From positions 1-31,180 of IMG/VR virus record IMGVR_UViG_3300017655_000250: a DNA stretch of 31,180 bases. The stretch is one strand, 5' to 3'. This document shows, piece after piece, positions 27,894 through 31,180 of the stretch; the stretch's first letter is position 1; the number at the start of each line of letters is the position of its first letter. The notes beneath the pieces were generated by a model. It did no database searches, was not told where the DNA came from, and saw nothing but the letters and a program-made list of their open reading frames with translations. This DNA is from a virus (lineage: Duplodnaviria; Caudoviricetes). A program made the position numbers and the translations under genes.

Positions 27894-28826
27894 TTATTCT
27901 TTGTCGACAAGGTTTTGCAGCCACTTCAAGACCTGTTTAAGCTTGTCTTTGGGTTGAGTTTCAATAGTGGCCAGCCAGTTGATTGTTTTCTGCTTCTCCT
28001 CTTCGTCCTTGTAGGTTGCGAGCGGAGCCAGGTTGACAATTTTGTGCCGAAGCTCATCTTCGGTAGGTTCAGCGACCGGCTGGTTGCGATGCTCGTCGAC
28101 CGCCTCCAGGAAAGCGAAGAAGCCGCGATCCTTATCGAGAGGGAGGGTTTCCGGCAGGTTGTAACGGTTCTTCGCATCCCAGCCAGGTGCCCAGCTTGTG
28201 TGCATGATCCGGTCCCCGCCGATTACCTTCTTGTGACCATCGCTATCTTCGGTCTTGAAGGTTTCATAGACGGCGAAGAGGCAAGCATCCGGCCATTCGC
28301 GGAGGATGCCTGTGAAATGTTTGTGACCCTTCATTTCGTACCGGTCGAACGGATCGCCGCCGGGAGGCGTGTGATTCTTGATATGGACGTGCGAAAGAAT
28401 GATGATCGCGATTTTGTGCTTGTGCCGGATGCTATCGAGCTTTGCCAGCAAATCGACCAGTTCCGGCAAGACAATGTTATAGCCTTTCCCGTAACCGTAG
28501 GCTTCGATGTTAGCCTTTTTGTCGCGCTTGCAGCAATGGCCCTGAATCAAGCGTTCGAGCCAGTCAGCGGTGTCAAGTACCAGCGTCTTAAACGCTACCG
28601 TTGCGGCGGCTTCGATGTCGTCCAGGAAACCGACGAGTTCCTTGTAGTCGCCCGGCGTGAACCGGTTGATGTGCTCAAGCCCGGTCAAGCCGTCTTCGGC
28701 TGCAATGAACAGCGGATCGGGAGCGTTCGCGCCGAAGGTAGATTTCCCGATGCCTTCCGGCCCGGAGAGAACCACGCGCGGCGGCAGGTCGACGACTCCT
28801 TTTTTGATCTTGGAAAGGTAGCTCAT
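27894..28826 (-). CDS. Sak4-like ATPase/ssDNA annealing protein (AAA_24)
   Basis: GPEGIGKST, AEDG, VLDTADWLE, GYGKGY, WDAKNR. Confidence 0.88.
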   Translation of the reverse strand: MSYLSKIKKGVVDLPPRVVLSGPEGIGKSTFGANAPDPLFIAAEDGLTGLEHINRFTPGDYKELVGFLDDIEAAATVAFKTLVLDTADWLERLIQGHCCKRDKKANIEAYGYGKGYNIVLPELVDLLAKLDSIRHKHKIAIIILSHVHIKNHTPPGGDPFDRYEMKGHKHFTGILREWPDACLFAVYETFKTEDSDGHKKVIGGDRIMHTSWAPGWDAKNRYNLPETLPLDKDRGFFAFLEAVDEHRNQPVAEPTEDELRHKIVNLAPLATYKDEEEKQKTINWLATIETQPKDKLKQVLKWLQNLVDKE

Positions 28827-29257
28827 TACTCTTCGCCTCCTTCGCCGCTCACGTCGACGCTGTTAAGTTTAAGCATCGCATCAATGGCGATGCTTAAGTC
28901 GGTTTGCTTGCCGGTGACGAGATCGTCGATGATGCGGTTTGCGCGACGGGAAACCTTCCGCTTGATTTCTTCCCTCTGCGATTGATGCAGGTTGTTGGCA
29001 GCCTGGCATCGTTCTTTGAGGTCTCCGAAATCGAACACCTTTTCGATTTCGATATAGCGACGGCCCGACCGTTGATAAGCGCTAAGAATGGCCTCTTTGG
29101 CGCGAAGCTTCGCCGTGCCAGAGTCAATGCGTTTTTCAATTTCGTTGTCGAAATCAGGAACTGGCGGAAGCGCGTTGATGAATTGCCGGGTCTTCGTTTC
29201 AGCGATCTGGTAGATTCGCTCCCTAGCGTATTTAAGTTGGGTTGCTGTAATAGACAT
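28826..29257 (-). CDS. Hypothetical helical protein
   Basis: 143-aa ORF, TAATG-coupled to Sak4 with GAAGGAGG SD in its 3' end. Confidence 0.65.
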   Translation of the reverse strand: MSITATQLKYARERIYQIAETKTRQFINALPPVPDFDNEIEKRIDSGTAKLRAKEAILSAYQRSGRRYIEIEKVFDFGDLKERCQAANNLHQSQREEIKRKVSRRANRIIDDLVTGKQTDLSIAIDAMLKLNSVDVSGEGGEE

Positions 29258-29295
29258 GGTGTTTTCTGTTCTGTTGGTTTGGTGGATTAAAAGGG

Positions 29296-29446
29296 TGCGA
29301 GCGGGCCGGAGTCGAACCGGCCACGGTTAGTACCGCTAGACAGGTCTCCCGCACAAAGCCGATAGCGGGGACACTCCTTTCTTCCTCGGCATAGGTTGCC
29401 GTCATATTTTCGGTTTGCGTGTTGCTCCGCCCACGCCGCCGCTCGC
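29296..29446 (-). ncRNA. tRNA-like structured RNA with a 95-nt insert in place of the anticodon arm
   Basis: 8-bp acceptor GCGAGCGG/CCGCTCGC, D-like arm GCGTG-10 nt-CACGC, canonical T arm GCCGG-TTCGACT-CCGGC. Confidence 0.7.
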
Positions 29447-29560
29447 ATTTTGAAAAGGTCCGGTTTAACCACCCACCGGCAAGGTTCTATGGGTCATGAA
29501 ATCAACACACGTTGAGTTGAGCTTACATATAGATACCCTCCTTTCTTTGTAGTGATGGGA

Positions 29561-29657
29561 TTGATCCGGTGCCCTGCTTTTATTTGGTTACGGGGCGGGT
29601 GGATGAAAATAACTACCGTTTTGCCAGCGGCGCACTATTTACCCATGACCGGATCAA
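29561..29657 (-). ncRNA. Second candidate structured RNA element
   Basis: Perfect 10-bp closing stem TTGATCCGGT/ACCGGATCAA around 77 nt containing imperfect hairpins. Confidence 0.35.
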
Positions 29658-29663
29658 AAGCTG

Positions 29664-30716
29664 TTAGTCGATCATCATCGACCTGAAATAAATTTCAAAC
29701 GCCTTGTGCATGAGCGTTCCGAACCGAAGGGCTTCGCTCTCTTCCTTGGTCGGCTCGATCGGATTTTCGTAGCGGTGATAGTGGTATCTGGCGCACTTGC
29801 GGAGAGCCGTCAAACGGGAGTTTGTCAGAAGCTCTTTCTCTCCCTCTTCCATTTCCAGTTCGCTATGCTTCCGCGCCTTTTGACGGTAGCGGATACCGTC
29901 GACCGATGCCCGCCCGGTGCAAAGTTCGTAGAACTCACACTGGCCGAACATCGAGCACGCGCTCGGGTTCCTGGGCCAGAGGTTTCCCCGGCGGTAGTGA
30001 AGTATTTGCTGGGATTGCGCCCAGGCATCACCCATGTATTCCAGGAGGTCAGCGTCAAGGCGGGGAACCTCACGTTGCGCGAAGTAGGCATCAAGATCGC
30101 CCGTAATCTCTTCTTCGAGCCGTGCGCCGTATTCTTCCGGGGTTTCGGTCTGCGATTGCAAGACGTAACCGTCTGCCGGGCTGGCGCTCTCACGCCACTT
30201 TTTTCCATCCTTTGTCCGCACCCGCTCGCCGTTGGCATCGAGCACGATCTTCACGCCGTCGCTGTCCAGGGTTGGAATCTGTCGGGGGCGCGATCCAGGC
30301 TTTTTGATCACGTCATGAAGCAGGTTTCCGACGTCCAGGCCCCTTTGCTTGAGGGCGAGAATGTACTTGCTGCTTTGCGTGTCCATTGCGAGGCGGTGCC
30401 AATAGTCGCTATCCGGTGCGACGGACTCCGACGTTGTCTTGTGCTCAAGCACAAGGTAGCGATCACTGGCGCGATGCTGCAAAACCGCGTCGATCTTTCC
30501 GCCTTCGTCGAAGGTCTTCGACATGCCTTCGGTCTGCGGGTTGAGGAGCGGAAAACGGAACTCCTCTTCCACGCTGATCACAGCGTAGCCCGCGTACTTT
30601 CCTCGCCACCGGAGATCGTAGCCGACTATCAGCGCGCGAGCCTTGGCAAGATCGTAGTCGAGCGGGAGCGCGTCAAGATGGGCGAGGGCGCGCTCGATTG
30701 GTAGAAGGTTTGACAC
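29664..30716 (-). CDS. PD-(D/E)XK exonuclease, Cas4/AddB-like Fe-S type, circularly permuted (350 aa)
   Basis: GTG start 2 nt after the upstream stop; VEEEF, GKIDAV, LEHKTT, QSSKY, C-x5-C-x5-C; the normally N-terminal LTNSR..CARYHY..ALRFGTLMH motif is at the C-terminus. Confidence 0.85.
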   Translation of the reverse strand: MSNLLPIERALAHLDALPLDYDLAKARALIVGYDLRWRGKYAGYAVISVEEEFRFPLLNPQTEGMSKTFDEGGKIDAVLQHRASDRYLVLEHKTTSESVAPDSDYWHRLAMDTQSSKYILALKQRGLDVGNLLHDVIKKPGSRPRQIPTLDSDGVKIVLDANGERVRTKDGKKWRESASPADGYVLQSQTETPEEYGARLEEEITGDLDAYFAQREVPRLDADLLEYMGDAWAQSQQILHYRRGNLWPRNPSACSMFGQCEFYELCTGRASVDGIRYRQKARKHSELEMEEGEKELLTNSRLTALRKCARYHYHRYENPIEPTKEESEALRFGTLMHKAFEIYFRSMMID

Positions 30717-30718
30717 GG

Positions 30719-31180
30719 TTAGGCTTCCTTTGGTTGATGCACCTTGACGGCGTGCCCGATTTTCGCCTGGAACTCTTCGATCCATTCCAGGGTGAGCTTT
30801 GCAACGGCATTGTTTTCCGGCGTGTTGCCCTTGCGGATCGCGAGGAACCAGCGTTCTGCCGGGCGGCTGGCGTCTGGTGTGATGCCGGGAATGTCATCGT
30901 GCGCGACGCCGGAAACACGAGCGAGTGTTCCGACAAGGCAACAACAATCCCCGAAGTAAGTAGAGCCGTCCACTTCGCCGGCGATCAGCGCGGCCTTGAG
31001 CCCGGCGACTTCGGCGGGGGCGTTGAGGAGGATTTCGAAGAAGTCGCCCTTGATGGCGTAGAGGTTGGCCCTGGAGAGGTTGGCCCTGGAGAGGTTGGCC
31101 CCGGAGAGGTTGGCCCTGGAGAGGTTGGCCCTGGAGAGGTCGGCCCCGGAGAGGTCGGCCCCGGAGAGGTCGGCCCCGGA
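30719..31180 (-). CDS. Pentapeptide-repeat protein (5' truncated by window edge)
   Basis: Open frame from the window end: eight ([15 protein letters not shown]) units, then YAIKGDFF...[19 protein letters not shown]. Confidence 0.9.
31061..31180. repeat. 15-bp tandem repeat, at least 8 units
   Basis: GAGGT(T/C)GGCCC(T/C)GGA eight times, encoding the pentapeptides. Confidence 0.95.

What the first reader, a model, noticed from the sequence alone, without database searches (positions are those of the whole stretch)
29296..29446. tRNA-shaped RNA with a 95-nt multi-hairpin insert replacing the anticodon arm
Seen: a perfect 8-bp acceptor, 2-nt linker, 5-bp D-like arm and textbook T arm, ending ACCC rather than ACCA. 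The insert has hairpins GGCA/TGCC, CCCGC/GCGGG and GCGGT/ACCGT. It is too short for a group I intron and lacks tmRNA features. Established: P1 C4 and P4 CI immunity RNAs are cut from early transcripts by RNase P. Inference: a tRNA scaffold that releases a regulatory RNA, processes the early mRNA, or decoys tRNA-targeting defences.
Basis: partly seen in the sequence, partly recalled or inferred. Interest (0 to 1): 0.75.

Follow-up and report, generated by a model that had tools for sequence, protein, structure and literature searches.

The report
Phage tRNA shell with swappable insert
A prophage carries a 151-base element that keeps the outer frame of a transfer RNA but has a 95-base insert where the codon-reading arm should be; the same frame recurs in many unrelated phages with different inserts and resembles phage T5's unexplained RNA2, so it is likely a cut-out, non-decoding carrier RNA whose job is still untested.

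Summary
The feature is real and lies on the minus strand (29446-29296) of a prophage's early recombination operon. It has an 8-bp acceptor, a CG linker, a 5-bp D hairpin, a 95-nt insert, a canonical T arm and A73-CCC-TTTT. Rfam and default ARAGORN miss it.

It belongs to a phage family: 9 of 11 viral loci with the D-hairpin motif carry the whole shell. All 8 acceptor pairs show compensatory changes, while inserts (50-232 nt) are mostly unrelated. A model built without the window scores it 57.6 bits and T5 RNA2 36.7, against 20.5 for the best T5 tRNA.

An 82%-identical phage holds a 102-aa gene in the same slot. Two 94-97%-identical phages keep one shell with different inserts. The best reading is a leucine-tRNA-derived, non-decoding accessory RNA, likely excised by RNase P, whose constant arms likely allow insert exchange.

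Not shown: expression, cleavage, or any target. The insert folds no better than shuffles and has no homolog. This scan noted the same design before on other DNA. Verdict: a new variant of the T4/T5 'tRNA-like stable RNAs'.

The parts
29439..29446 (-). acceptor stem, 5' strand (8 bp; G1 at 29446, U at -1 = 29447)
   Evidence: all 8 pairs show both-side changes among 11 members
29437..29438 (-). CG linker (positions 8-9 equivalent), invariant in the aligned members
   Evidence: partly fixed by the search patterns
29417..29436 (-). D-like hairpin: 5-bp stem and 10-nt loop holding the G18-G19 equivalent; a two-base-longer variant of the family's 8-nt loop (GRYGGAGA)
   Evidence: resembles leucine tRNA D arms
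29322..29416 (-). 95-nt insert in place of the anticodon and variable arms; predicted hairpins at 29401-29387, 29372-29344 and 29336-29323; no anticodon loop, no homolog found
   Evidence: z -1.33; no target above chance
29305..29321 (-). T arm: 5-bp stem, loop TTCGACT
29297..29304 (-). acceptor stem, 3' strand
29289..29296 (-). discriminator A73, then CCC and a T run (no encoded CCA); likely 3' processing boundary
   Evidence: the role is inferred
29280..29453 (-). exchangeable slot: in the 82%-identical phage L003 homology stops at about 29453 and resumes at about 29280, and a 102-aa ORF fills the slot
   Evidence: no model hit in the 39-kb L003 record
29664..30785 (-). upstream gene: PD-(D/E)XK exonuclease (context)
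28826..29257 (-). downstream 143-aa ORF of unknown family, starting 35 nt after the tail (context)
27894..28826 (-). Sak4-like single-strand annealing protein (context; related phages place a shell directly before or after this gene)

Best explanation
This is a tRNA-shaped element without an anticodon arm, likely derived from a leucine tRNA, that sits as an exchangeable accessory cassette in a prophage early operon and is likely cut out of the transcript by the host's tRNA-processing enzymes to give a stable ~150-nt RNA carrying a swappable insert. Shown: the anatomy, the family, covariation of the shell, unrelated inserts, replacement of the slot by a small gene in a close relative, and different inserts in one shell between close relatives. 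Inferred: (1) co-transcription with the exonuclease-Sak4 operon; (2) RNase P cutting at or near G1, 3' trimming in the T run and possibly CCA addition; (3) the shell protects the insert, as engineered tRNA scaffolds do; (4) the constant arms serve as short recombination joints, perhaps for the neighbouring Sak4; (5) the product acts in trans in phage-host conflict. No target is known.
For: Shell selected as RNA: 9 of 11 viral loci found by the D hairpin alone carry T arm and acceptor. In 11 members 12 of 18 pairs, including all 8 acceptor pairs, change on both sides; 0 of 500 shuffles reach this. Elbow bases (D-loop GG, T loop TTCRANT) are kept. Held-out test: window 57.6 bits, L257 65.1, L254 43.6, T5 RNA2 36.7, best ordinary tRNA in that search 29.3. 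It behaves like a gene: the slot holds a 102-aa ORF in L003; three 93-97%-identical phages hold different tandem sets of shells in one slot; one shell is 30/30 and 36/38 identical at its ends with unrelated ~147 and ~170-nt inserts. T5 RNA2 is annotated 'tRNA-like stable RNA', is matched over >=80% of its length in 418 of 445 phage records, and lies inside the deletion of the viable T5Mos (same coordinate system assumed). The host has RNase P RNA and a tRNA nucleotidyltransferase-family gene. Leucine origin: L243's acceptor and T arm equal the host tRNA-Leu(UAA) arms plus one pair, and Leu(UAA) genes were the only Rfam-recognised tRNAs among the 8 family-wide model hits.
Against: There is no expression or cleavage data. 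The window's insert has no homolog, no covariation and no folding signal (z -1.33; the 18 inserts span -2.26 to +0.87), and no antisense target above chance in window or genome. No neighbouring protein family is shared among 41 flanking ORFs. A seven-pair acceptor is called a major RNase P determinant (PMC4201824, passages), and this stem has 8-9 pairs. No RNase Z reached the curated cut-off in the host (best 72 of 293 bits). The window's D loop departs from the consensus, so this copy may be drifting. Members were kept only if they paired (T 5/5, acceptor >=6/7), so the 98% pairing figure is partly built in.
Confidence: 0.5

Rival explanations
1. It is a cis-acting processing signal: the shell is cut by RNase P and 3' nucleases to split the early polycistronic mRNA and set the levels of upstream and downstream genes, and the insert is tolerated filler.
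For: The shell is conserved and the inserts are not. Inserts fold no better than shuffles. All members examined are co-oriented with their neighbours; the next ATG follows within 45 nt in 15 of 18. Related phages place it at three different joints of the exonuclease-Sak4 module.
Against: L003 runs the same operon without it. Up to four tRNA-like units lie in tandem with no protein gene called between them. T5 RNA2 and L252 sit among real tRNAs that already punctuate the transcript. The T5 RNA2 middle is conserved as far as a T4-like Acinetobacter phage (85.7% over query positions 56-118).
Confidence: 0.25
2. The shell alone is the working part: an uncharged, non-decoding tRNA mimic that soaks up host proteins reading the tRNA elbow or acceptor end (tRNA-end-modifying toxins, sensors, synthetase or EF-Tu); the insert only removes the anticodon.
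For: Elbow and A73 are kept while the middle is free. Phage tRNA regions are known counter-defence loci (PMC11464382, passages).
Against: A decoy would not need 50-232 nt of insert. Most members lack an encoded CCA. Sister shells in the same arrays have a non-canonical T loop. In the PARIS case the suppressor is a real tRNA-Lys.
Confidence: 0.12
3. This copy is a decaying remnant of such a cassette, carried along by recombination with no present function.
For: The D loop deviates from the consensus, the insert has no homolog, and the element is absent from L003. Truncated-looking shells exist (L300).
Against: The acceptor (8/8), D stem (5/5) and T stem (5/5) are intact, although shell positions differ from the nearest relative (16/18 and 26/29 identical). 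It scores 57.6 bits against a model built without it.
Confidence: 0.1
4. It is a real tRNA gene interrupted by an unknown intron that is spliced out to restore an anticodon arm.
For: At a relaxed threshold ARAGORN can force an intron model on the window (Gln, 52-nt intron).
Against: At the default threshold there is no call on the window, with or without introns. At the most relaxed threshold 15 of 18 elements get calls with eight different identities and intron starts from 27 to 37. There is no Rfam intron hit, and inserts share no sequence.
Confidence: 0.03

Closest known systems
Phage T5 RNA2 (GenBank AY543070 32959-33083, 'tRNA-like stable RNA with unknown functions')
   Same: 8-bp acceptor, CG linker, 5-bp D stem with an 8-nt G-rich loop, insert in place of the anticodon arm, canonical T arm, A73, no intact encoded CCA. 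It is the top model hit in 16 kb of T5, 36.7 bits against 20.5 for the best T5 tRNA.
   Different: Low sequence identity (6/18 at the 5' end, 17/29 at the 3' end), an unrelated insert, and a tRNA-cluster setting rather than a temperate phage's recombination operon. T5 RNA2's insert is conserved among relatives; the window's has no homolog.
Phage T5 RNA1 and T4 rnaC (species 1 RNA)
   Same: Small phage RNAs with a T arm and an enlarged middle, annotated as stable and of unknown function.
   Different: They lack the CG linker and D-hairpin signature and score 10.3 and 12.7 bits, below ordinary tRNAs.
tRNA-Leu (RF00005), the likely ancestor
   Same: Leu-like D arm, A73 and T arm; L243 repeats the host Leu(UAA) acceptor and T arm plus one pair.
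   Different: No anticodon arm, 8-bp acceptor, extended D stem; no RF00005 hit.
tRNA-Sec (8/5 fold) and allo-tRNAs (8/4, 9/3)
   Same: A 13-bp acceptor-T branch, as in tRNA-Sec (PMC5389517, passages).
   Different: No UCA or any other anticodon; RF01852 scores 19.3 of 47 bits, on the T arm only.
Engineered 'tRNA scaffold' expression system
   Same: Acceptor, D and T arms kept and the anticodon stem-loop replaced by a cargo RNA (PMC3753655, passages).
   Different: Man-made. It shows that the design can work, not that this phage uses it that way.
YrlA bacterial Y RNAs
   Same: A tRNA-like domain with D and T arms, also found in phages; one is cut by RNase P and gains CCA (PMC4201824, passages).
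   Different: In YrlA the acceptor-like stem is an internal stem-loop between T and D, and Ro60 is encoded next door. Here the acceptor is terminal and no TROVE gene was found.

Membership tests
T5 RNA2-like tRNA-shaped RNAs (defined here; not an Rfam family) | 7-8-bp terminal acceptor stacked on a 5-bp T arm with a canonical T loop | tested here: met
T5 RNA2-like tRNA-shaped RNAs (defined here; not an Rfam family) | CG linker and 5-bp D hairpin with a GG-containing loop | tested here: met
   the window loop is a 10-nt variant
T5 RNA2-like tRNA-shaped RNAs (defined here; not an Rfam family) | Scores above ordinary tRNAs with a model built from other members | tested here: met
   window 57.6 and T5 RNA2 36.7 bits; best ordinary tRNA 29.3; E-values rough
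T5 RNA2-like tRNA-shaped RNAs (defined here; not an Rfam family) | Accumulates as a discrete stable RNA | not testable with these tools
   needs RNA data for this prophage
canonical tRNA (RF00005) | 5-bp anticodon stem with a 7-nt loop | tested here: not met
tRNA-Sec (RF01852) | 8/5 acceptor-T branch | tested here: met
tRNA-Sec (RF01852) | UCA anticodon arm and model score over 47 bits | tested here: not met
   19.3 bits, T arm only
intron-containing tRNA | Removing one segment at a consistent site restores a valid anticodon arm | tested here: not met
   inconsistent relaxed calls across 18 elements
tmRNA | G3-U70 alanine acceptor, stemless D loop, tag frame (features recalled) | tested here: not met
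   pair 3 is G-C and a D stem is present; no ARAGORN or Rfam call
P1 C4 / P4 CI antisense RNA | Rfam C4-type model match and complementary targets in the phage | tested here: not met
   no hit at E<=10; longest antisense match 12 nt, within the null
YrlA Y RNA | Internal acceptor-like stem-loop between T and D; adjacent Ro60/TROVE gene | tested here: not met
   terminal acceptor; TROVE in 0 of 1 host genome (95% complete) and 0 of 5 member phages
tRNA-based attachment-site remnant | 3' half identical to a host tRNA | tested here: not met
   the only BLAST match in the genome at E<=0.001 is itself; differs from host Leu(UAA)

The most novel reading that the evidence does not exclude
Phages use a leucine-tRNA-derived shell as a natural expression and exchange cassette: host RNase P releases a protected RNA, and recombination between the constant arms swaps in new inserts. 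This gives a fast-evolving repertoire of small anti-host or anti-defence RNAs. T5 RNA2 would be the laboratory-tractable member, so a decades-old class of unexplained phage RNAs becomes testable.
Probability: 0.3. Interest if true: 0.85.

Novelty: new variant of a known kind. Interest (0 to 1): 0.5.

Why it matters
T4 and T5 have long carried 'tRNA-like stable RNAs of unknown function' in their annotation. This work ties an uncultured prophage element to T5 RNA2 through a defined signature and a held-out model test. It shows the design in temperate and large phages of very different base composition, and shows that the shell stays while the insert or the whole slot is exchanged. Default ARAGORN and Rfam miss these elements, so they are unannotated. 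Shell versus insert can be tested directly in T5 and laboratory E. coli.

Tried and rejected
Plus-strand reading: it folds similarly, but the T loop and gene direction are on the minus strand.

Rfam: nothing at gathering in the window; only T-arm-level hits at E<=10; no hit on the homologs themselves.

BLAST against cultured phages with the window, L128, L149 and two 32-nt hairpin queries gave only short, weak matches (E 0.1-10) or none.

Patterns that led nowhere: one chance hit across a tRNA cluster; 0; 1 non-member; too loose; controls match as well. One search returned only a copy identical to the window. Class-wide BLAST of 401 genomes with L044 gave only the window plus three T-arm-sized hits. 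The family-wide model search scored only 19 candidates per genome, so its blanks mean little.

Antisense targets were rejected, as were a shared partner protein, Y RNA and an intron.

Sequencing runs: no RNA holder listed; this is no evidence either way.

Papers: searches listed no paper describing this family or a function for T5 RNA2 (listings only; most subscription papers are not held). A motif search of the PMC10690425 supplements found nothing, but files 1, 2 and 4 were not searched and mmc1-3 could not be read. That catalogue of 10,006 viral RNA candidates may hold members.

Full report
Observation. The stretch 29296-29446 reads as a tRNA only on the minus strand, the strand of the flanking phage genes. 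It has an 8-bp acceptor, a CG linker, a 5-bp D-like stem with a 10-nt loop, 95 nt of insert, a 5-bp T arm with loop TTCGACT, then A, CCC and TTTT. The whole fold is only modestly better than shuffles (z -2.0). ARAGORN finds nothing in the window and nothing at this place with introns allowed. Rfam finds nothing at gathering and only T-arm-level matches to tRNA-Sec and Deinococcus Y RNA at E 0.5-1.5. The lack of CCA is ordinary here: 22 of 36 cleanly parsed host tRNA genes encode CCA and 14 do not (five truncated rows and one call without a T loop were set aside).

Setting. The window is a prophage with lambda-like terminase, portal and head genes and, around the element, an exonuclease, a 143-aa ORF, a Sak4-like annealing protein, RusA and helicases. 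It lies at one end of a 146-kb contig that continues into host genes. The host is likely a verrucomicrobium, going by the titles of records with the closest Sak4 and several of the closest shells; this is inference.

The slot is exchangeable. Phage L003 is about 82% identical on both sides, but homology stops about 6 nt before the element and resumes about 10 nt after its T run, and a 102-aa ORF fills the gap. The model finds no shell in that 39-kb record. Of the 39 exonuclease loci, none showed this shell near the gene (flanks of up to 3 kb).

A family. A BLAST hit in 151 genomes of the host's family gave L044, whose shell is 16/18 and 26/29 identical at the ends but whose 59-nt insert is unrelated. 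Searching IMG/VR with the 19-nt D-hairpin motif alone returned 11 loci, of which 9 carry the T arm and a pairing acceptor. In bacterial and archaeal genomes 2 of 24 did, the rest looking like chance. A T-arm pattern added L342 and L386. Among 11 aligned members, 12 of 18 pairs, including all 8 acceptor pairs, change on both sides, and 0 of 500 shuffles reach this. Members were kept only if they paired, so the 98% figure is partly built in; the diversity of acceptor sequences is not. Acceptors fall into true 8-bp stems (the window among them) and 7-bp stems with a U-1:A73 pair. Inserts run from 50 to 232 nt. Of 55 pairwise comparisons among 11 inserts, three passed p<0.05: one pair of sister phages and two weak hits that chance would give.

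Closest known RNA. A covariance model built from 8 members, leaving out the window, L254 and L257, scores these three at 57.6, 43.6 and 65.1 bits. It scores T5 RNA2 at 36.7 and its DU_PP_V homolog at 34.4. The best T5 tRNA scores 20.5, the best ordinary tRNA in the search 29.3, T5 RNA1 10.3 and T4 rnaC 12.7. GenBank annotates T5 RNA2 as a 'tRNA-like stable RNA with unknown functions'. It has the same linker, D-stem length and loop pattern, and 418 of 445 matching phage records cover at least 80% of it. The viable T5Mos deletion spans its coordinates (PMC11464382, passages; same numbering assumed), so it is dispensable in the laboratory. The lead to the T5 RNAs came from earlier notes of this scan; the assignment to RNA2 rather than RNA1 is tested here.

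Origin. L243's acceptor and T arm equal those of the host's tRNA-Leu(UAA) plus one pair. Leucine tRNA D arms in the phylum differ from the family hairpin by two loop bases and two stem pairs. Leu(UAA) genes were the only Rfam-recognised tRNAs among the 8 family-wide model hits. A leucine origin is therefore likely. That LeuRS ignores the anticodon is recalled, and charging of an 8-bp stem is untested.

Inserts are swapped. Three large phages that are 93-97% identical hold different tandem sets of tRNA-like units behind the same gene. Two of them share a shell that is 30/30 and 36/38 identical at its ends around unrelated inserts of about 147 and 170 nt. The window's own genome has a second prophage with a shell right behind its Sak4 gene and an expanded D loop (41.6 bits). 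Another related phage has a shell's T arm and acceptor strand directly before Sak4, at a contig end. Earlier notes e1-8186961 and e1-5685165 describe the same behaviour on other DNA; they are unchecked and not independent support.

What is not shown. The window's insert has no homolog, folds no better than shuffles (z -1.33) and has no antisense partner above chance: 12 nt at best in the window, reached by 29 of 300 shuffles, and 16 nt in the genome, reached by 9 of 60. No protein family recurs beside members. There is no TROVE gene in the host or in five complete member phages, which with the terminal acceptor excludes YrlA (PMC4201824, passages). Relaxed ARAGORN intron calls disagree on anticodon and site. 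The host has RNase P RNA and a nucleotidyltransferase-family gene but no RNase Z over the cut-off.

Mechanism. Most likely (0.5) the element is transcribed with the early operon, recognised through its tRNA elbow, cut out and stabilised like an engineered tRNA scaffold (PMC3753655, passages), and acts in trans through an exchangeable insert, with the constant arms serving as recombination joints. Every step after the anatomy and the exchange is inferred. The main rival (0.25) is a cis processing signal, favoured by the unstructured, unconserved inserts. It is weakened by tandem units, by its absence in L003 and by the conserved T5 RNA2 middle. A shell-only decoy (0.12), a decaying copy (0.10) and an intron (0.03) follow.

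Novelty. The kind is known from T4 and T5 annotation, but it is not in Rfam, and eight paper searches listed no description of this family or of a function for RNA2 (listings only). Supplements of PMC10690425 that could not be searched may hold members. I file it as a new variant of a known kind, interest 0.5.

Noticed in passing
window 29561-29657 (-): A non-coding stretch closed by a perfect 10-bp stem (29657-29648 with 29570-29561), conserved in L003, with a possible inner pseudoknot seen by eye; no relevant Rfam hit at E<=10.
   Followed up: partly
window 29523-29547 (-): A strong Shine-Dalgarno-like sequence followed by ATG-TAA (start-stop minigene), identical in its core in L003; this host's phage genes otherwise often have A-rich leaders.
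   Followed up: no
window 29453-29479 (-): A short hairpin with a conserved 12-nt loop followed by ACC and a T run, the same tail as the tRNA-like units; it marks the upstream breakpoint against L003.
   Followed up: partly
L269 1501-1645 (-), G000 contig C113: A second prophage in the same genome has a shell between Sak4 and the next gene with a ~50-nt expansion inside the D loop; L300 shares its 3' insert but no matching 5' acceptor was found.
   Followed up: partly
L128 1719-1924 (-), L147 1254-1482 (+), L421 1501-1700 (+): Sister shells with a Leu-like D loop and a non-canonical 8-nt T loop (AGTTACRC type), two of them in tandem arrays that differ between close relatives.
   Followed up: partly
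L265 1501-1610 (-): 8-bp acceptor, T arm and encoded ACCA but no D hairpin, in a prophage of the same genus, upstream of an ORF and a thymidylate-synthase-like gene (gene identity judged by eye).
   Followed up: no
L254 1239-1528 (-): Member with a 232-nt insert that contains a second T-loop-like hairpin, ends in an encoded CCA and directly precedes a family A DNA polymerase gene.
   Followed up: partly
L264 1501-1590 (+): A D-hairpin match inside a closed stem with no T arm, between apparent host genes (36.3 bits); unexplained.
   Followed up: no
L021 5496-5598 (+): Another tRNA-like stretch with a 7-bp acceptor, T arm and 68-nt middle, downstream of a Sak4 homolog and lacking this family's hairpin.
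   Followed up: no
L258 1542-2720 (-): The gene just upstream of a member encodes a PemK/MazF-like domain fused to a Bro-N domain.
   Followed up: no
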